Positions 2,696-23,694 are shown, counted from the stretch's first letter. The stretch: 64,000 bases of DNA from a virus (IMGVR_UViG_3300000304_000008:5363-69362), one strand, 5' to 3'. Numbers and translations are program-made. Notes: generated by a model not told the origin, from the sequence alone.

Positions 2696-3019
2696 CTTAA
2701 CTCTATTGTGAAATACAGTTAAGGCGTCTTCAGAAAATGACAAGCATGTGGGGCGTAAGTGTATAGTTACTTGAAGTATTATGTATTGTGCGTATACATA
2801 GTGAAGAGACGCATTATCTATATACAATCGTGCAGACGTTAAAACCATGTACTCCAATAAGGTTAGCTTGACAGCTTACCTGCTTATGAGTTAAAACTAT
2901 AGTGAGAGTCATAAAAATAATTTAATCTATCGTTATTCTAAAGGCTAATTAAGTAATTACGGTTATTCTTTAATTATACTCGCTGCATCGAGTATAAATA
3001 TTAATCCTAATGCAGTAGG
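2696..3019 (+). ncRNA. candidate structured intergenic RNA
   Basis: Several helices (2696-2723, 2724-2732/2802-2812, 2780-2800, 2759-2766/2818-2825) plus two hairpins with complementary loops (2974-2997, 3006-3019); no ORF. Confidence 0.45.
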
Positions 3020-5626: not shown

Positions 5627-5937
5627 AGTATGAGGAGCTTAATTGTTCCTCATACTACTATATGACTGTTAGGTCATTATACAGTTGTTAAGACGAGGGT
5701 TCGATTCCCTCTAGCTCCACGCTCTATGAGCACAAGGAAAAACATCATTTAGGTTTCTACTCTTCTTTTCCTTAAATAAAAAAGAAGAGATTAGGGGCTA
5801 ACTGGTTTTGATTAGCAACAAGATATAATGAATAGGTCATATAATTGTCTAAATGGCAATAAATTTGTTACAGACTATACTCGGATTGCAGCGTAATCTA
5901 AGTATAGCAGGGCTAAGCTAATGTCCTAGAAAGCTGG
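5627..5937 (+). ncRNA. ssrA: tmRNA, circularly permuted (two-piece) form
   Basis: T-arm GAGGG-TTCGATT-CCCTC (5695-5711) plus acceptor 3' strand TAGCTCC-A (5712-5719) lie upstream of 5' strand GGGGCTA (5794-5800), giving a 7-bp stem with G3.U70; helix 2 pairs 5659-5690 with ~5813-5853; tag frame 5855-5896 GNKFVTDYTRIAA*; outer ends approximate. Confidence 0.9.
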
Positions 5938-5982
5938 TGTGTGTAGTTGGTATTACTAGGTTCGAATCCTAGCACACAACTA
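5938..5982 (+). ncRNA. tRNA-like minihelix (acceptor stem plus T-arm only)
   Basis: TGTGTG/CACACA 6-bp stem, CTAGG-TTCGAAT-CCTAG T-arm, 12-nt linker replacing D and anticodon arms, 3' ACTA. Confidence 0.6.
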
Positions 5983-6013
5983 ATAATATTGTTTAATTTA
6001 AATTTATACGCGT

Positions 6014-6223
6014 ATGAGAACAGTAAATCAAAGAAAAGCAAGTACCCGTAATCATCAATTAATGCTGTTAGCTGGTATGATTACTAATCTTAACAGTATG
6101 GAAAGACAATGTGCATCTATACCTATTAGAGATCATATTGATAAAGTAAAAAATAGTATTCAAAAACTTCAAAATGCTATTTTTAGAAGTGAAACTAAAG
6201 ATTGGATTGAACAACCTTATTAA
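6014..6223 (+). CDS. small hypothetical protein
   Basis: 69-aa ORF, first of a packed operon. Confidence 0.7.
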   Translation: MRTVNQRKASTRNHQLMLLAGMITNLNSMERQCASIPIRDHIDKVKNSIQKLQNAIFRSETKDWIEQPY

Positions 6224-10461: not shown

Positions 10462-10830
10462 ATGAAAAAATTTAATACAGTATTACTAACATTAATTGTC
10501 TTTACTATTTGTGGTTTTATTGGTTATAGTACCAATTATACTCAAACAGTAAAAGCTAATGATTCGCCAAAGATGCCTTTGGTAGTATTCAACACAGAAC
10601 CAGTAGTAACTGGTTTTAATATTAATCTTGATTTAAATACTGGTAAAGCAGTTGTACGCGATACTGATAGAGATATTAAGATTAATATACAAAGAAAAGA
10701 TAGTATTATTACTCGATGGAAAACTTCTATTGTAGAGAAGACTAAATATATTCGAGTAAGAGAATTACCTGCAATGCAAATGCCGAAGACAATTGTAAGT
10801 CTTCCTTTTACAAAGCCTGAAAAGATTTAA
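10462..10830 (+). CDS. exported or membrane-anchored hypothetical protein
   Basis: Signal-peptide-like N-terminus. Confidence 0.75.
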   Translation: MKKFNTVLLTLIVFTICGFIGYSTNYTQTVKANDSPKMPLVVFNTEPVVTGFNINLDLNTGKAVVRDTDRDIKINIQRKDSIITRWKTSIVEKTKYIRVRELPAMQMPKTIVSLPFTKPEKI

Positions 10831-10899
10831 TATTTATTAAATCTATTTTTAAGATAGTACAGGATACTATTAGTTAATTTTATAGCTACAACTATATAA

Positions 10900-12920
10900 T
10901 TAATGAAAAGTATGATAGTCCTATATGTTTATATACTATCTATAAACCGAAAAGTTATAGGAAAAATGGGAGAGTGTGCATAACCCATGTAATATAATGA
11001 TTGAGAACCGATTGGAGATGATTTATATTATAAAGACACAATTTATTCTGCTGTATCGTCGGAAGTGAATAAGTTAAACTCTGCAAAGGTATCGTTAACC
11101 TATCGTCCGCGTATAATCAATATATGAATCAAGAAGGGACAATAACACGTGCTGCAAACTTGCCAAACGGGTAAGTATAAAAACCTCCATTAGCTCCAAA
11201 CTATATGGTTGAATTTAAAAGCAGGACTGACTAACGTCCTAGGGTGTCTCCAAAACATCCTTGCGGTTTTGTAAACGCTAAAAATATATCAAACATAGTG
11301 TTCTATACGTCAACCTATGGAAGTTGGCTCTAAAGAGCTTAAAAACGTATATATGAAGGTGTTATATTATATTATACATAGTACTACTTATAATACTAAG
11401 TAAGTGAGTAGTAGATTGCGTGTTCTAAGAACTGTATGCAAAACTTCAATTGTAATGAAGAAATGTCTATCGCAATGCAAGGGGAACCGGTACCTAGCTA
11501 ATCTAGACGTAGAGTAAGGATAGTTGCAAGACTATATTCTCAGTTTAATGGGATTGTGTAAATCAAGTGTATATATAATAGAAGTGATCGATTGTCATTT
11601 ATATCACTATAATATCTAACGTGCTTTGCACTGGTGTATGACAAATGACTCTGGCGGATGAAGGGCGCCAAAACCCTATTTCAATAAACAACGATTTGAT
11701 ATAAGTTGTTCGTATAAATAAGTTACTCAGGACTAGAACTGGGTTGTGGAATTCTAGGCAAGGTGGGACAGCAATCCTAATCGCTGTATATGGCACAATC
11801 TACGTACATTCCAGTACGAATTGAAAGAGACCATATTAAATATCGGAACTTATTTAAGTCACAATAACGCAGAATATTATTAGTATAGATGTATACTATA
11901 AGAAGTGTAAGTCATTGTTGGAAGATATTAATTAACTTAATGTATAATATTTTAAAAAATGAGGAAGTTCAATGGACGTAGAAATACTTCTCCACCCTCG
12001 ACTGTACAATATAATTGCTTAAACGAAAATCATTGACAGCAAATCATGATGTAAGTATCGCTGAATCGAAATAAATTTCTTCTCATTAGAGAAATTGATT
12101 GATGATAGGTGGAAATCCTAAAATTATGTGCAGTATAAGAACAAAGTCGTAAGTACACGCAGACGGCACAAAGACGTCTATAAATAAAACAAGTGGGCAT
12201 TGCGAAACACCAATGGCTTGTTCATAGTTTTGTGTAACGGTTTTCAACAAAATCGACCGGCTTTTAAGTCGACAATAACTAAAATTTGTTTGCCTATAGA
12301 AAATACCAAAAACTATTATTAACTATCTAAAATTATAAGCGTATGAACAAATTAATTTTTAACCACCATTTAATATAATATCGAGCACGCCTAAATTTAG
12401 TCGCTGTTAGGCTCGTTAAATAATCAGGGAAAGAATCGAACTCCTCTCGTTAACAGGAAAAACATAATACTATTAGAATTACTTATATTAATTTATGGGC
12501 GTAGCTATTCCTACCGTTGGAATCCCGTTATACGTTTTCTAACATATAACTACATTGATATATAATTTCACAAAATAGTATTTCGATAAATGATAAGAAG
12601 AACAGTTGACTCATCTGTCTCATGAGTAAAGTCCTACGGGGAATGCTGAAAGAGTAATAACTCTTAATCTAGTATTACATTTATCATTAAACTAACAAAG
12701 ACTCTCAAATTGTTATAATCTTATTTTATAGAATTATTTGTTTGGCACAAATATTAACGTTAAGTTCATAATGTTATATGATATAACTATCCTCATTCAA
12801 AGCTTTATAAAAGCGTACTATTAAGAACATAGTAAGGATAAATAAAAAGAATTTGACAGAGATTATTTAACTAAATGTTTAATTTATCCGTGGTGACATC
12901 AATCACGGAATCAAAAAAGG
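10900..12920 (+). ncRNA. ~2-kb non-coding tract, candidate large structured RNA(s)
   Basis: No credible ORF; many short hairpins (11158-11176, 11223-11240, 11241-11261, 12106-12120, 12382-12415, 12609-12627, 12887-12909); strand assumed from flanking genes. Confidence 0.4.
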
Positions 12921-12928
12921 ATAATTAA

Positions 12929-13474
12929 ATGGATAAAATTTTAGAATTTACAGAATCCGAACTGAATCAGTATCGAGCTGTGTTAGCTATTTATGGACAA
13001 TATTATGGTAAAAAAGTAGTTAGTCCGTTAAGTGAAAATCTTGATTTAGATCATGCAGAAAAGGAAAAGAAGAATATTAATCCTCGCTTTGCAAAGGCTA
13101 TTAAGAAATTTTTCACGAAGTCTTATACTTTAACATCTTTTGATTTAACTCGAAATGCAAATGGTAAAGTATGCATTACTATTAATCATGACCCGCAATT
13201 AACTTTCCCATTAGTTGCAAATGATAAACCATCAATGCTTGAATCAAGCGAAGAGGCTATTACTAATGCTCTTATTCAGCATCAGACCAGTGGAAAAATC
13301 ACTTTTTTTACTGATTTAGAAAAGGTAAATGAAGTAATTACTAATTTGAATGAACAAAATGCACGAGATTTGGAAGATTTTGCAGATTCTTGTGTAAATT
13401 TTGCTTCAGCATTGCGAAATATTAATACCGCAGAACGACAATCTGTTACAGACTATTTGAATTCTCTTAAATAA
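12929..13474 (+). CDS. hypothetical protein
   Basis: 181-aa ORF. Confidence 0.8.
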   Translation: MDKILEFTESELNQYRAVLAIYGQYYGKKVVSPLSENLDLDHAEKEKKNINPRFAKAIKKFFTKSYTLTSFDLTRNANGKVCITINHDPQLTFPLVANDKPSMLESSEEAITNALIQHQTSGKITFFTDLEKVNEVITNLNEQNARDLEDFADSCVNFASALRNINTAERQSVTDYLNSLK

Positions 13475-14002: not shown

Positions 14003-14099
14003 AATAAACAAAAATATAAGTGTGGGATGGATTAGCTTATAGTAATGCATCATAATCGTTAAGATGTGGATGGATAAGTCTTAACGACTATGATGTTTA

Positions 14100-14160
14100 T
14101 AGCTAGTATGGTAACTTTATGGTTGGGAAGATTGATAGTTCGATTCTATCTCTAGCTACA
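14100..14160 (+). ncRNA. degenerate tRNA-like element
   Basis: TAGCTAG/CTAGCTA stem plus GATAG-TTCGATT-CTATC T-arm, 27-nt interior with no proper anticodon arm. Confidence 0.45.
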
Positions 14161-14213
14161 CGGTAAACGATTATACATGGTTTTAGTATTAATAATTAAA
14201 ATCAATATAATCA

Positions 14214-15432: not shown

Positions 15433-15512
15433 AGCGTAGGGGAGTTATGGAATACTCGCATACGATTCCATGGCGTATGAATTAATCAGTTCGAATCTGG
15501 TCTACGCAACTA
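15433..15512 (+). tRNA. tRNA-like gene with non-canonical enlarged anticodon loop (identity unresolved; central triplet CCA)
   Basis: Acceptor GCGTAG/CTACGC, D-arm GAGT/ACTC, anticodon stem CATACG/CGTATG with 9-nt loop ATTCCATGG, 5-nt variable loop, T-arm ATCAG-TTCGAAT-CTGGT. Confidence 0.6.
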
Positions 15513-15523
15513 AATTAGTAATT

Positions 15524-17371
15524 ATGAAAATAAGAAATAAAATAGTTTATGTTTATGATATAGAAGTATTTAGAAATGTATTTCATTGTACATTACTTAA
15601 TACTGAAACAGAAGAACTTATAAAGTTCGAATGTTCTATACGTAAAAATAATATAGAAGAAATGTGTAAATTCTTTAAACAAGATGCATATTTCGTAGGT
15701 TATAATAATATACATTATGATAATCCGATAATAAACTATTGTATTGAATATTTTTCTAATTCTAAATACACATATAATAAAATTTGTTTATCAATATTTA
15801 ATTTATCAAATATTATTACACAAGATAAGGAGAATATTGATAGATGGAAACGTTGGAAATATGCCAATAATTTTCTAACAGTTGATTTACTTACTATGCT
15901 TTATAGTAAAGCATTACGAGTATCTTTAAAAGAAATGCAAGTAACAATGATGTATAAAAACGTTCAAGAATTTAATCAAGATTGGAATAGTAATTTAGCA
16001 GACAATAATATAGATTCTATGATAGAATATAACATTAATGATGTTATGTCTACTTATGAATTATTAAAAAGATGTGAAAAAGATATTCAATTACGATTAA
16101 ATATTGAAGACCAATACCATATTCATTGTCTTTCTAAAGATGGTGTAAATATTGGTATGCAAATATTAGCTGAAGAATACATGAATAAAACAGGTATATC
16201 TTGGGATATACTTAAAAATATGCGTTCACCAGCAGACATCATTGATTTAAATGAAATAATTTTACCAATAATAAAATACAATACACCAATTTTACAAGAT
16301 TTATTAAATGAAATGAAACAATTAAAAGTTTCACCTGGTAGAAAAGGTTATGAAAAACAATTTCTATTAGAAGATTTAACAATATCTGTTGGTGTAGGTG
16401 GTATTCATAGTATTAATGAACCAGAAATTATAATACCAAATGAAGATGAATTACTTGTAGATTTAGATGTTGCATCACTATATCCTTCAATGCTATTAAA
16501 TTTTAATTTTTATCCTAGACATTTAGGTAAAGAATTTAAAGAAATCTATCAAGAAATAAAAGATAGACGAATATATGCAAAGAAAACAGGTGATACAGTA
16601 ACTAATGAAACATTAAAATTAGCTTTAAATGGTTTATCAGGTAATTTACAAAATGAATTTAGTTGGTGTTATGATCCTAAATCAGTAATGGGTATTAGAA
16701 TTAATGGTCAATTATTACTATTAATGCTTACTGAAAGATTAATTGCTATTGGTGCAAAACCTATTCAATTAAATACTGATGGTATATTTTGTAAAATACC
16801 AAAAAATAATTATGAATTAGCTAAACAAATATGTAAAGAATGGGAATCTTTAACAGGTTTAATTCTTGAAGAAGATAGATTTAAATCTTTTTATCAATTA
16901 GCTATTAATGATTATTTTGGTGTATTTGAAAATGGTAAAATAAAAGAAAAAGGTTGCTTTATAACAAAAGTAAAATTAGGTAAAGGATTAAGTCCTAAAA
17001 TCATACCTAAAGCTGTAGAAAAATATTTTCTTGAAAATATTAAACCTAAAGATTATATTCCTACAGTAACAGATATTAAAGATTTTTTAATGTCTGAAAA
17101 AACTGGAAAACAATGGCATGTTGAATATAATAACACGTCACAACAAAGAACAAATAGATTTTATGCTTCTACCGATGGTTATTATTTATATAAATGGAAA
17201 GATAATCAAGGAATTAAAGAATATCAGAATATGCTTGTAGCATCTGGTGTTACTTTATTAAATAATTTTGATGATTTAAAAGAAAATCCTAAAATTAATT
17301 ATCAATATTATATTACAGAAGCAAATAAAATTATAGCACAATTTAAAAATAAACAACTATCGTTGTTCTAA
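15524..17371 (+). CDS. polB: DNA polymerase, family B
   Basis: Exo I YDIE, motif A DLDVASLYPS, motif B KLALNGLSGN, motif C NTDG; start placed at MKIRNK because the upstream ATG lies inside the tRNA-like gene. Confidence 0.92.
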   Translation: MKIRNKIVYVYDIEVFRNVFHCTLLNTETEELIKFECSIRKNNIEEMCKFFKQDAYFVGYNNIHYDNPIINYCIEYFSNSKYTYNKICLSIFNLSNIITQDKENIDRWKRWKYANNFLTVDLLTMLYSKALRVSLKEMQVTMMYKNVQEFNQDWNSNLADNNIDSMIEYNINDVMSTYELLKRCEKDIQLRLNIEDQYHIHCLSKDGVNIGMQILAEEYMNKTGISWDILKNMRSPADIIDLNEIILPIIKYNTPILQDLLNEMKQLKVSPGRKGYEKQFLLEDLTISVGVGGIHSINEPEIIIPNEDELLVDLDVASLYPSMLLNFNFYPRHLGKEFKEIYQEIKDRRIYAKKTGDTVTNETLKLALNGLSGNLQNEFSWCYDPKSVMGIRINGQLLLLMLTERLIAIGAKPIQLNTDGIFCKIPKNNYELAKQICKEWESLTGLILEEDRFKSFYQLAINDYFGVFENGKIKEKGCFITKVKLGKGLSPKIIPKAVEKYFLENIKPKDYIPTVTDIKDFLMSEKTGKQWHVEYNNTSQQRTNRFYASTDGYYLYKWKDNQGIKEYQNMLVASGVTLLNNFDDLKENPKINYQYYITEANKIIAQFKNKQLSLF

Positions 17372-22537: not shown

Positions 22538-22631
22538 ATAAATTCATACTAGGCGAAGAGGATAGTCACTGAATTAAATTAAGGCTCTTACTACTTTCGG
22601 TGGATGTGGAAATAACCGAATATTCTTTCTA

Positions 22632-22674
22632 GGAGTGAAAACGTAATGGGGATTCGTATTCCCCCACTCCACTA
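22632..22674 (+). ncRNA. tRNA-like minihelix (acceptor stem plus T-arm only)
   Basis: GGAGTG/CACTCC, GGGGA-TTCGTAT-TCCCC, 10-nt linker, 3' ACTA. Confidence 0.6.
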
Positions 22675-22686
22675 AATTAAGTAACT

Positions 22687-23694
22687 ATGTATAATAAAGA
22701 GAAAGCTAAAAAGCCAATCTATACTTTAGATTGGATATTATCTAAAGTAACAGAATATGATATATATGCTAGTTACTTAGGTGAATTTAAAGTAGGACTT
22801 ATATATAATAGTCCATTTAGAGAAGATAAAAATCCATCATTTGGTATATACTATAGTAAAAGAACTCAACAACTTTTATTTAAAGACCATGGTACTGGTC
22901 AATGTGGTAATGTGATTAAATTCGTATCTCTAATAACAGGTAAGACTAATTATGATGATATATTAGAAGATATAGTAAATCATACTCATATTACTAATCG
23001 TACCAAATTAGCTAGCTCTAAGCATTATATACCATCTACAGAGACAATTATAGGCGTTGTAAGACAAGATTTTACTGAAACTGATAAGAAGTATTGGTCA
23101 CAGTTTAATATTAGCTTAGAAACGCTTAAAATGTATCATGTAAGTAGTATTAAATATTATTTATGTAATGGTATTGTTAAAGGTATATACAAAGATGATA
23201 ATCCTATGTATGCTTATAAAGTATATAATCATTTTAAGATATATAGACCTTTAGCAGATAAATACCATAAATGGCGTAACAATCTTGAACAAAACGATAT
23301 ACAAGGTTATGAACAACTACCAGAAGTAGGTGATTTATTAATTATAACTAAATCAATGAAAGATGTTATGTGCTTTCACGAAATGGGTTATAATGCTATA
23401 TCTCCTGCTTCTGAAAGTACATTTATCTCAGACATCGCTTTAGAGACTATTTTAAGGCGATTTAAGACAGTTTTAATAATGTTTGATAGAGATGGTGCTG
23501 GAGTTAATTATCTTCGCAAAATAAGCCAAAAAACAGGCTTAAAACCGATTTTAGTCCATCGTAAGTTTAAAGCAAAAGATATATCTGATGCAATTAAGCT
23601 AAATGGATTTAAAAAAGTAAAAGAATGGTTTGATAAAGAAATGAAAAAATATGTAGAACCAAAAGATAAAGAATGCAACAGTAACAATTGTTGA
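22687..23694 (+). CDS. dnaG: DNA primase (DnaG-like, TOPRIM)
   Basis: SPFREDKNPSF zinc-ribbon-like region, TKSMKDVM, MFDRDGAG (DxD), KDISD. Confidence 0.88.
   Translation: MYNKEKAKKPIYTLDWILSKVTEYDIYASYLGEFKVGLIYNSPFREDKNPSFGIYYSKRTQQLLFKDHGTGQCGNVIKFVSLITGKTNYDDILEDIVNHTHITNRTKLASSKHYIPSTETIIGVVRQDFTETDKKYWSQFNISLETLKMYHVSSIKYYLCNGIVKGIYKDDNPMYAYKVYNHFKIYRPLADKYHKWRNNLEQNDIQGYEQLPEVGDLLIITKSMKDVMCFHEMGYNAISPASESTFISDIALETILRRFKTVLIMFDRDGAGVNYLRKISQKTGLKPILVHRKFKAKDISDAIKLNGFKKVKEWFDKEMKKYVEPKDKECNSNNC

What the first reader, a model, noticed from the sequence alone, without database searches (positions are those of the whole stretch)
5938..5982. Recurring truncated tRNA mimics placed directly 3' of structured RNAs: possible host-RNase processing tags
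This element and the one at 22632-22674 share one architecture with unrelated sequence: 6-bp acceptor-like stem, 5-bp T-stem with TTCG(A/T)AT loop, a 10-12-nt linker instead of D and anticodon arms, then ACTA. Same structure with different sequence is a covariation-like signal within one genome. Here the mimic starts right where the tmRNA coding piece ends; the other copy directly follows a structured RNA and precedes the primase start. Hypothesis: the phage uses acceptor/T-arm minihelices as RNase P/RNase Z cut sites to release ncRNAs from polycistronic transcripts, or as CCA-enzyme or anticodon-nuclease decoys. Minihelices are established RNase P substrates; this phage use is inference and may be an undescribed system.
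Basis: partly seen in the sequence, partly recalled or inferred. Interest (0 to 1): 0.78.

Follow-up and report, generated by a model that had tools for sequence, protein, structure and literature searches.

The report
tRNA top-half mimics punctuating crAss-like phage genes
A gut crAss-like phage keeps small RNA folds that copy only the upper half of a tRNA at fixed spots (right after its split ribosome-rescue RNA, and just before its DNA polymerase and primase genes); they are under strong selection and most likely tell host tRNA-trimming enzymes where to cut the phage transcripts, although no cut has yet been observed.

Summary
5938-5982 and 22632-22674 are acceptor/T-arm minihelices as described. 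14100-14163 is a longer variant.

The window is a Suoliviridae (crAss-like) phage. Three elements occupy slots conserved across that family:
- directly after the pseudoknot that ends the coding piece of a permuted tmRNA (116 IMG/VR loci, 58 unique);
- 12-22 nt before the DNA polymerase start;
- 12-22 nt before the primase start.

Slot occupants range from canonical tRNAs of different identity, through forms with a crippled anticodon arm, to 40-nt minihelices. The acceptor stem, the T arm and an A-C-N-A tail always persist. Eleven of 12 pairs show compensatory changes. The primase element is as conserved as the primase coding sequence and five times more conserved than the spacer next to it.

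Best reading (about 0.55): these are reduced tRNAs kept as RNase P/RNase Z processing signals, like plant-mitochondrial t-elements or mascRNA. They would release the tmRNA and set mRNA ends. Cleavage itself is untested.

I found no paper describing them. This scan has noted the same kind of element before on other phage DNA, including a tRNA-like tail on another crAss-like phage tmRNA.

The parts
5662..5721 (+). Permuted tmRNA, acceptor piece: helix-2 3' strands, T arm 5695-5711, acceptor 3' strand TAGCTCC 5712-5718, then A-C (CCA not encoded)
   Evidence: Rfam RF04321, 58 bits against a gathering score of 47; ARAGORN 3' tRNA domain
5722..5793 (+). Intervening segment of the permuted tmRNA gene, removed on maturation in known two-piece tmRNAs
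   Evidence: Lies between the two tRNA-domain halves in the Rfam alignment. In relatives this segment holds a T-arm-like hairpin or a full tRNA-His
5794..5937 (+). Permuted tmRNA, coding piece: acceptor 5' strand GGGGCTA 5794-5800 (G3.U70 with 5712-5718), tag frame 5855-5896, H-type pseudoknot (5910-5913 with 5923-5926; 5916-5919 with 5932-5935), then GG
   Evidence: The pseudoknot is read from the sequence; one pair is G-C here and C-G in relatives. The motif is conserved in 116 IMG/VR loci
5938..5982 (+). The finding: tRNA top-half minihelix (6-bp acceptor, 12-nt linker with D-loop-like GG, 5-bp T stem, TTCGAAT loop, tail ACTA). tmRNA-tail slot
   Evidence: Homologous slot elements covary. 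Best sub-threshold Rfam matches are mascRNA-menRNA (16.5 bits) and tRNA (15.6 bits)
6014..6223 (+). First ORF after the tmRNA/minihelix (69 aa, no family match); no terminator lies between them
14100..14163 (+). tRNA-like variant (7-bp acceptor, 27-nt linker, GATAG-TTCGATT-CTATC T arm, 1-nt bulge, tail CACG), preceded by a strong hairpin at about 14043-14098. Weakest member
   Evidence: The syntenic slot holds tRNA-Leu(taa) in cr125 and a D-arm-only tRNA-like element in cr52
15434..15512 (+). tRNA-sized mimic not called by ARAGORN (6-bp acceptor plus an A.A pair, D-arm-like GAGT/ACTC, anticodon-like arm with an over-long stem/loop, ATCAG-TTCGAAT-CTGGT T arm, tail A-ACTA). DNA polymerase slot
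   Evidence: Slot conserved in 5 RefSeq relatives and in about 60 of 67 unique IMG/VR upstream regions
15524..17371 (+). DNA polymerase gene. The true start is at 15524, not the listed 15470, which lies inside the mimic
   Evidence: PHROG 1252, E 7e-138; N-terminus MKIR... conserved from 15524
22632..22674 (+). Second minihelix (6-bp acceptor, 10-nt linker without GG, GGGGA-TTCGTAT-TCCCC, tail ACTA), 12 nt before the primase ATG. Primase slot
   Evidence: (z -2.93). Slot conserved. Diversity of the slot element in a sister clade is 0.032 against 0.155-0.165 in the flanking spacer
22687..23694 (+). DnaG-type primase gene
   Evidence: Pfam Zn_ribbon_DnaG and Toprim_2; annotated 'DNA primase' in relatives

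Best explanation
The elements are reduced tRNA genes that Suoliviridae phages keep as cis-acting RNA-processing signals, in effect 'tRNA punctuation'.

Shown:
- The structure, its conservation, the fixed slots and the shared tail.

Inferred:
- Each element is transcribed as part of a long + strand transcript and folds into the acceptor/T-arm coaxial stack. In most copies a D-loop-like GG completes the elbow. This is the part of a tRNA that bacterial RNase P, RNase Z and the CCA-adding enzyme recognise.
- Host RNase P would cut at the 5' edge: 5937/5938 (or one base earlier if G5937.A5979 counts as pair 1:72), 15433/15434 and 22631/22632.
- RNase Z or exonucleases would cut or trim after the discriminator A: 5979, 15509 and 22671.
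- At 5938 this would free the 3' end of the tmRNA coding piece just after its protective pseudoknot and separate it from the downstream mRNA.
- At 15434 and 22632 it would give the DNA polymerase and primase mRNAs short A/T-rich leaders of about 12-22 nt.
- Decoding is dispensable, so the D and anticodon arms have decayed or been deleted in many lineages.
For: 1. Slot conservation independent of sequence.
- The tmRNA-tail element follows the conserved pseudoknot motif in 9 RefSeq relatives and 116 IMG/VR loci.
- All five complete relatives carry a tRNA-shaped element upstream of both the polymerase and the primase start, as do most of 67 and 53 unique IMG/VR upstream regions. Oafivirinae cr272 and cr7 have it too.

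2. Same slot, different occupants.
- The polymerase slot holds canonical tRNA-Arg(tct), Leu(taa), Met or Glu in some genomes, D-arm-only forms in others, and minihelices in others.
- The tmRNA slot holds forms with 4-6-nt 'anticodon' loops or none at all.
- Only the top half is constant.

3. Covariation, on a sequence-anchored MAFFT alignment of 24 tmRNA-slot elements.
- 85.9% of cells are paired, against 61.8% in shuffles (0 of 500 reach it) and 43-53% when the partners are slid.
- 11 of 12 pairs carry compensatory changes.
- In a fixed-register test, 30 of 55 unique elements have 7 of 7 acceptor pairs, against a mean of 3.9 for mismatched partners.

4. Purifying selection.
- In 32 unique loci of one clade the primase minihelix has diversity 0.032 (6 of 48 columns vary).
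- The upstream spacer has 0.155-0.165, and the primase coding sequence 0.028.

5. Shared 3' context.
- A-C-N-A follows the mimics, with A and C invariant in A4.
- The phage's real tRNA-Met and suppressor tRNA have the same tail.
- The tmRNA acceptor end has A-C then variable bases.
- This suggests one 3'-maturation route for all of them.

6. Transcript context.
- No terminator lies between the tmRNA and the next gene.
- A Hatchet self-cleaving ribozyme sits in another spacer of the same strand, so transcript cutting in this module is plausible.

7. Established knowledge.
- Acceptor/T-arm minihelices are RNase P substrates (McClain, Guerrier-Takada and Altman 1987; my recollection).
- t-elements direct RNase P/Z cuts at plant mitochondrial mRNA ends (PMC1920247).
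- Permuted tmRNA precursors are cut by tRNA-processing enzymes (PMC11915505).
Against: - No RNA end has been mapped. The only RNA runs found held assembled contigs of relatives, probably partly DNA.
- The window's stack is 6+5 = 11 bp, not the canonical 12.
- The primase copy lacks the linker GG and has T instead of A at T-loop position 58, so its elbow may not form.
- The base before the predicted RNase P site is not uniform.
- A protective hairpin just upstream of the elements, which the model would like, is not significant overall.
- Steigviridae (crAss001, cr111) express the homologous primase without any such element, with the genes abutting.
- The host, and its RNase P and RNase Z, are unknown.
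Confidence: 0.55

Rival explanations
1. The released minihelices are the functional product. They would be small CCA-tailed tRNA top halves acting in trans as decoys or sponges for proteins that bind tRNA acceptor ends or elbows, for example host defence toxins that modify or cut the acceptor end, the CCA-adding enzyme, or EF-Tu. This reading still needs processing, so it overlaps with the best explanation.
For: - The whole element, including the unpaired linker and the T loop, is conserved as strongly as coding sequence. That is more than a bare cleavage signal might need.
- The D-loop-like GG is kept in most copies.
- There are several copies per genome.
Against: - The acceptor-stem sequences differ freely between slots and lineages, which does not fit mimicry of one particular host tRNA.
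- Strict positional conservation next to start codons and to the tmRNA end is not needed for a trans-acting RNA.
- There is no anticodon, so anticodon nucleases are excluded as targets.
Confidence: 0.15
2. The elements are uncleaved structural parts of the RNAs. They would act as a 5' tRNA-like cap that stabilises or enhances translation of the polymerase and primase mRNAs, and as a 3' tRNA-like end on the tmRNA coding piece, comparable to the tRNA-like 3' ends of plant viral RNAs.
For: - The distance to the start codon is constant and short, about 12-22 nt.
- The leader after the element is as conserved as the element itself.
Against: - Where canonical tRNAs occupy the same slot, they must be excised to function, so cutting at the slot is the default expectation.
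- No aminoacylation identity is apparent. There is no G3.U70: position 3:70 is T-A in the window element.
Confidence: 0.1
3. The elements are neutral relics: decaying tRNA genes at hot spots where phages gain and lose tRNA genes, with no present function.
For: - Some relatives have canonical tRNAs of varying identity in the same slots, and there is a graded series of truncation.
- The 14100 copy looks degenerate, with a bulge and no A-C-N-A tail.
Against: - Compensatory changes occur in both stems.
- Diversity is five-fold lower than in the adjoining spacer.
- The same reduced architecture is kept with different stem sequences in separate lineages, for example GTCTGTG, CCCCTG and CCCCCG with an almost identical D-arm-only body.
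- All substitutions seen within the primase-slot clade preserve pairing.
Confidence: 0.07
4. For 5938 only: the element is a tmRNA-type tRNA-like domain without a coding part, binding or titrating SmpB. The comparison is the TLD-only sequence of mycobacteriophage DS6A, a molecule type reported to inhibit tmRNA.
For: - It sits next to a tmRNA.
- It has the same overall shape as a tmRNA tRNA-like domain: acceptor, D-loop analogue, T arm and no anticodon arm.
- The precedent is quoted in PMC4131195.
Against: - There is no G3.U70 alanine identity pair.
- Equivalent elements sit at the polymerase and primase genes, far from any tmRNA.
- In relatives the slot occupants carry anticodon-like arms.
- The linker shows no similarity to the phage tmRNA's own D-loop analogue.
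Confidence: 0.03

Closest known systems
t-elements of plant mitochondria (Forner et al. 2007, PMC1920247)
   Same: - They are non-decoding tRNA-like folds carrying the GGTTCRANYCC T-arm motif and are embedded in longer transcripts.
- They lie directly next to mRNA 5' or 3' ends.
- They are thought, and in some cases shown, to direct RNase P and RNase Z cuts.
- The excised element can carry non-encoded C/CCA additions.
   Different: - They occur in an organelle, not a phage, and are evolutionarily unrelated.
- Most t-elements are imperfect cloverleaves rather than pure top halves.
- Cleavage there has experimental support; here there is none.
- Here one element is coupled to a two-piece tmRNA.
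mascRNA / MEN-beta tRNA-like elements (Rfam RF01684)
   Same: - It is a small tRNA-like fold at the end of a longer non-coding RNA, and RNase P cleavage at its 5' side creates the mature 3' end of the upstream RNA.
- It is the best sub-threshold Rfam match to 5937-5979, aligned over the full model.
   Different: - It is a vertebrate nuclear RNA.
- The score of 16.5 bits is far below the gathering score of 42.5, so the phage element is not a member.
- mascRNA keeps a small anticodon-like arm.
Acceptor/T-arm 'minihelix' model substrates of RNase P, RNase Z and CCA-adding enzyme
   Same: The architecture is the same: a coaxial acceptor and T stem-loop with a single-stranded 3' tail beginning with a purine and then C.
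   Different: - Those are laboratory constructs with 12 bp and an RCCA tail.
- The window elements have 11 bp, a 10-12-nt internal linker and the tail A-C-T-A.
tRNA-punctuated and tRNA-linked processing of phage and bacterial RNAs, including permuted tmRNA precursors (PMC11915505)
   Same: - Permuted tmRNA transcripts are cut by tRNA-processing enzymes into two pieces.
- Phage tRNA clusters are matured by host RNase P.
   Different: A dedicated tRNA-like element that defines the 3' end of the coding piece has not, to my knowledge and by my searches, been described. In RefSeq it is either swallowed by the tmRNA feature (cr125, cr52, cr114) or annotated as tRNA-Leu (cr60).
TLD-only tmRNA of mycobacteriophage DS6A (PMC4131195)
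   Same: It is a phage-encoded RNA of about 65 nt comprising an acceptor stem, a D-loop analogue and a T arm, without an anticodon arm or a coding part.
   Different: - DS6A's element is a tmRNA derivative with alanine identity features.
- The elements here lack G3.U70 and recur at replication genes.

Membership tests
tRNA (Rfam RF00005 / ARAGORN cloverleaf) | A cloverleaf with a D arm and an anticodon arm with a 7-nt loop; a score above the Rfam gathering score of 29 bits, or an ARAGORN call | tested here: not met
   - ARAGORN finds no tRNA in the window.
- RF00005 scores 15.6 bits at 5937-5980 and 15.4 bits at 14101-14158, and gives nothing at 15434 or 22632.
- The D and anticodon arms are absent or abnormal.
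tRNA (Rfam RF00005 / ARAGORN cloverleaf) | An acceptor stem stacked on a T arm with a TTCRANY-type T loop | tested here: met
   covariation of both stems in homologues. The 22632 copy has a deviant loop, TTCGTAT.
t-element-like processing signals (functional class, PMC1920247) | A non-decoding tRNA-like fold with a conserved T-arm motif inside a transcribed, non-tRNA context | tested here: met
   - GGTTCGAATCC is present at 5959-5969.
- The elements lie in intergenic spacers on the coding strand between co-oriented genes.
- Transcription itself is inferred, not shown.
t-element-like processing signals (functional class, PMC1920247) | The ends of the element coincide with mapped RNA termini, or RNase P/Z cleavage is demonstrated | not testable with these tools
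   The public RNA runs held only contigs of relatives; no molecule starts or ends were reported.
mascRNA-menRNA (RF01684) | A score at or above the gathering score of 42.5 bits | tested here: not met
   16.5 bits, E 0.33. This is a resemblance in shape and in proposed mechanism only.
tmRNA tRNA-like domain / TLD-only tmRNA | The G3.U70 alanine identity pair in the acceptor stem | tested here: not met
   Position 3:70 is T-A in 5938-5978, and is A-T/T-A type in homologues. The true tmRNA halves at 5794-5800 and 5712-5718 do have G3.U70.
Permuted (two-piece) tmRNA (RF04321), for the neighbouring RNA | The 3' tRNA half precedes the 5' half, with helix 2, a resume codon and a tag frame; a score above the gathering score | tested here: met
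   58 bits against 47; the ARAGORN permuted call with its tag; annotated tmRNA in relatives.
RNase P minihelix substrate | A 12-bp coaxial acceptor/T stack and a 3' R-C-C-A tail able to pair with the P15 loop | tested here: inconclusive
   - The stack is 11 bp (6+5), or 12 layers if the G5937.A5979 mismatch is counted, as in the Rfam alignments.
- The tail is A-C-T-A. A73 and C74 are conserved and position 75 is variable.

The most novel reading that the evidence does not exclude
Suoliviridae phages run a mitochondrion-like tRNA-punctuation system. In addition, the excised, CCA-repaired top-half RNAs of about 45 nt are themselves active small RNAs: decoys that soak up host factors or defence enzymes acting on tRNA acceptor ends or elbows. 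That second role would explain why even their unpaired linkers are conserved as strongly as coding sequence.
Probability: 0.12. Interest if true: 0.85.

Novelty: new variant of a known kind. Interest (0 to 1): 0.6.

Why it matters
If the reading is right, it matters in four ways.

1. tmRNA maturation. It would explain how a two-piece tmRNA embedded in a phage transcript gets its fourth end. Three ends come from the tRNA-like domain itself, and the last would come from a dedicated tRNA mimic.

2. Phage tRNA genes. It would show that an abundant family of human-gut phages uses host tRNA-processing enzymes to cut its replication-gene transcripts. That gives phage 'tRNA genes' a second job, one that outlives decoding. 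It bears on the long-standing question of why phages carry tRNA genes and odd pseudo-tRNAs.

3. Annotation. These elements are currently hidden inside tmRNA features or mislabelled as tRNA-Leu, tRNA-His or 'tRNA-???'.

4. Testability. The predicted cut sites are precise to the nucleotide.

Tried and rejected
- RNA-end evidence. The look-up of sequencing runs and read laying gave only Logan contigs of related phages from animal-gut libraries, and no begin/end pile-ups. Alignment breaks at the spacers reflect sequence divergence, not RNA ends.
- A protective hairpin immediately upstream of every element. Upstream 40-mers fold slightly better than coding controls, but the median z against shuffles is about 0. 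Not supported as a rule.
- An alternative 5' acceptor strand upstream of the tmRNA acceptor piece (GGAGCT, 5634-5639). It is present only here and in cr125 and is not conserved. Treated as chance.
- Functional replacement by ribozymes. Rfam on 20 slot loci where my scan found no tRNA-like element gave only two ordinary tRNAs further upstream and no ribozyme.
- Promoter and terminator scans around the tmRNA. There is no terminator, and promoter-like sites are no more frequent than in shuffles. The Bacteroides-type -33/-7 pattern is not enriched.
- Covariance model across slots. MAFFT right-anchored the short elements and staggered their 5' strands, so no sound seed alignment was available. I used descriptor scans and the sequence-anchored alignment A4 instead.
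- attP or integration-site fragment. Rejected because both acceptor strands are present, there are three or four slots, and the stems covary.
- N4-type DNA-hairpin promoters for the virion RNA polymerase. Rejected because two stems separated by a linker covary, the loop is the tRNA T loop, and real tRNAs occupy the same slots.
- A structured ncRNA at 22549-22631. Not significant and not conserved.

Full report
WHAT IS THERE

The window is the 5363-69362 stretch of a 99.6-kb viral record with direct terminal repeats. Its nearest named relatives are Suoliviridae crAss-like phages from human faeces.

At 5662-5896 Rfam finds a permuted tmRNA (RF04321, 58 bits). ARAGORN calls a permuted tmRNA with the tag GNKFVTDYTRIAA*. 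ARAGORN's printed range (5630-5987) runs over the finding, but it does not use the finding as a tRNA domain.

Read from the sequence, the coding piece ends in an H-type pseudoknot: 5910-5913 pairs with 5923-5926, and 5916-5919 pairs with 5932-5935. Two G residues follow, and the element starts at 5938.

5938-5982 and 22632-22674 have exactly the architecture described: a 6-bp acceptor-like stem, a 10-12-nt linker, a 5-bp T stem, a TTCG(A/T)AT loop and the tail ACTA.

- A loose descriptor scan gives three good + strand hits in the window, against 0.43 hits per first-order Markov resampling.
- A scan that allows any 7-nt loop but demands the A-C-N-A tail gives, in the whole genome, only these two, a third element at 15434-15507, and an artefact spanning the two real tRNAs. 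The expectation is 0.58.
- The 14100 copy is a looser relative: 27-nt linker, 1-nt bulge, tail CACG.
- The 15434 element was not in the finding. It is tRNA-sized but not called by ARAGORN. Its anticodon-like arm is over-long, and its tail ends 11 nt before the real start (15524) of the DNA polymerase gene.
- The genome's only canonical tRNAs, an initiator-like Met(cat) and an amber suppressor (cta), lie outside the window on the other strand. They are followed by the same A-CTA.

WHAT RELATIVES SHOW

1. tmRNA-tail slot
- In nine RefSeq relatives and 116 IMG/VR loci found through the conserved pseudoknot motif, a tRNA-shaped element starts right after the motif.
- Among 58 unique versions the 'body' ranges from a 12-nt linker to 48 nt or more. 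The longer ones have a D arm and an anticodon-like stem closed by a 4-, 5- or 6-nt loop. That stem itself covaries in some clades, for example CTTAG/CTAAG against CTTGG/CCAAG.
- None of the tmRNA-slot forms I folded is a canonical tRNA. The cr60 copy that RefSeq and ARAGORN call tRNA-Leu(taa) has a mispaired anticodon stem.

2. DNA polymerase slot
- All five complete relatives, and most of 67 unique IMG/VR upstream regions, have a tRNA-shaped element ending 12-22 nt before the start codon.
- The occupants are canonical tRNA-Arg(tct), Leu(taa), Met(cat) or Glu in some, D-arm-only forms in many, and a 15-nt-linker minihelix in one.

3. Primase slot
- The picture is the same, and a 10-nt-linker minihelix is the commonest form.
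- The slot is present in all five Suoliviridae subfamilies sampled, including Oafivirinae.
- It is absent in Steigviridae crAss001 and cr111, where the primase gene abuts its neighbour.

4. The 14100 slot
- It holds tRNA-Leu(taa) in cr125 and a D-arm-only form in cr52.

SELECTION

The alignment A4 holds 24 tmRNA-slot elements and was anchored by flanking sequence, not by structure. On it:
- the acceptor and T stems pair in 85.9% of cells, against 61.8% in shuffles (0 of 500 reach the observed value) and 43-53% when the partners are slid by 1-3 columns;
- 11 of 12 pairs show changes on both sides.

In a fixed-register test, 30 of 55 unique elements have 7 of 7 acceptor pairs, against a mean of 3.9 for mismatched partners.

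Within one clade of 32 unique loci, the primase minihelix has nucleotide diversity 0.032. The spacer just upstream has 0.155-0.165, and the primase coding sequence has 0.028. The few substitutions inside the element are pair-preserving transitions.

After the acceptor stem, A and C are invariant, the next base varies (A, T, occasionally C), and an A follows. The tmRNA's own acceptor end also has A-C followed by non-CCA bases. So the mimics, the real tRNAs and the tmRNA share one 3' context.

These data exclude chance and make neutral decay very unlikely.

MECHANISM

What persists is the part of a tRNA that RNase P, RNase Z and the CCA-adding enzyme read: the acceptor/T coaxial stack, usually with a GG in the linker that could close the elbow. 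What is lost is what decoding needs. Where a slot holds a real tRNA, it must be excised, so cutting at the slot is the default expectation.

I therefore read the elements as reduced tRNAs retained as processing signals.

- At 5938, an RNase P cut would create the 3' end of the tmRNA coding piece just behind its pseudoknot. A cut after A5979 would free the downstream message. There is no terminator in between.
- At 15434 and 22632, the cuts would give the polymerase and primase messages short A/T-rich leaders.
- A Hatchet ribozyme in another spacer of the same strand shows that this module carries at least one other RNA-cutting device.

All of this is inference. I could not obtain RNA-end data.

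Weak points:
- The stack in the window copies is 11 bp.
- The T loop is deviant and the GG is missing in the primase copy.
- The host is unknown.

I put the processing reading at about 0.55.

The overlapping alternative is that the excised top halves also act in trans as decoys. I put it at about 0.15. Its best support is that even the unpaired linker is conserved.

COMPARISON WITH WHAT IS KNOWN

- The closest functional analogues are plant-mitochondrial t-elements (PMC1920247) and mascRNA. The latter is the best, though far sub-threshold, Rfam match to 5937-5979 (16.5 bits against 42.5).
- The elements are not members of the tRNA family by score or by architecture.
- They are not tmRNA-type domains, because they lack G3.U70.
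- The TLD-only RNA of mycobacteriophage DS6A (PMC4131195) is a look-alike with a different proposed role.

My literature searches found no description of these elements in crAss-like phages. In RefSeq they are buried in the tmRNA feature or annotated as tRNA-Leu.

This scan has noted the same kind of element before on other DNA: a tRNA-like tail on another crAss-like phage tmRNA (e1-3088072) and 'tRNA top-half mimics' in several unrelated phages. Those are unchecked AI notes. I used them as leads only.

VERDICT

This is a new variant of a known kind of signal. It is well grounded comparatively, mechanistically unproven, and directly testable.

Noticed in passing
window 2726-2850 (+): A full-length Hatchet self-cleaving ribozyme (Rfam RF02678, 88 bits, E 5e-17) lies in the spacer after ORF 2205-2651, on the same strand as the tRNA-like elements. 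It is a second kind of RNA-cutting device in the same gene module.
   Followed up: no
window 15470-15523: The mechanical ORF for the DNA polymerase starts at 15470, inside the tRNA-like element. The conserved N-terminus (MKIR...) and the slot geometry put the real start at 15524.
   Followed up: yes
own genome 97696-97846 (- strand, outside the window): The only canonical tRNAs are an initiator-like tRNA-Met(cat) with a C1.A72 mismatch and an amber suppressor tRNA(cta). This is consistent with TAG recoding of the late genes. Both are followed by A-CTA rather than CCA.
   Followed up: partly
L004 416-488 (cr114); L002 about 440-460 (cr125); L006 and L008 (cr10, cr50): In relatives the intervening segment between the two tmRNA halves holds a full tRNA-His(gtg) (cr114) or a T-arm-like hairpin (cr125, cr10, cr50). 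tRNA-shaped pieces may therefore also help to excise the spacer. The window's spacer has only a plain hairpin.
   Followed up: no
window 5634-5639 with 5713-5718: GGAGCT upstream of the tmRNA acceptor piece could pair with the acceptor 3' strand as an alternative, non-alanine tRNA-like fold of the precursor. It is seen also in cr125 but not in five other relatives, so it is probably chance.
   Followed up: yes
window 14160-14213, and syntenic spacers in cr6, cr52, cr53, cr125: Downstream of the 14100-slot element, a short motif (roughly CTAC-N-GGTA-RRCG, then GGT-N3-AGTATTAA) recurs in front of the homologous 165-aa gene. It may be a regulatory or promoter sequence.
   Followed up: no
window 10830-12929: A stretch of about 2.1 kb has no + strand ORF of 50 aa or more, in an otherwise tightly packed module. 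No Rfam family reaches its gathering score there.
   Followed up: no
L053, L091, L069, L008 (tmRNA-tail slot of relatives): One clade keeps a complete L-shaped mimic whose anticodon stem covaries but is closed by a 6-nt loop (NTNTTA). ARAGORN reports it as 'tRNA-???' with a 2-nt anticodon. It looks like a tRNA shape deliberately disabled for decoding.
   Followed up: partly
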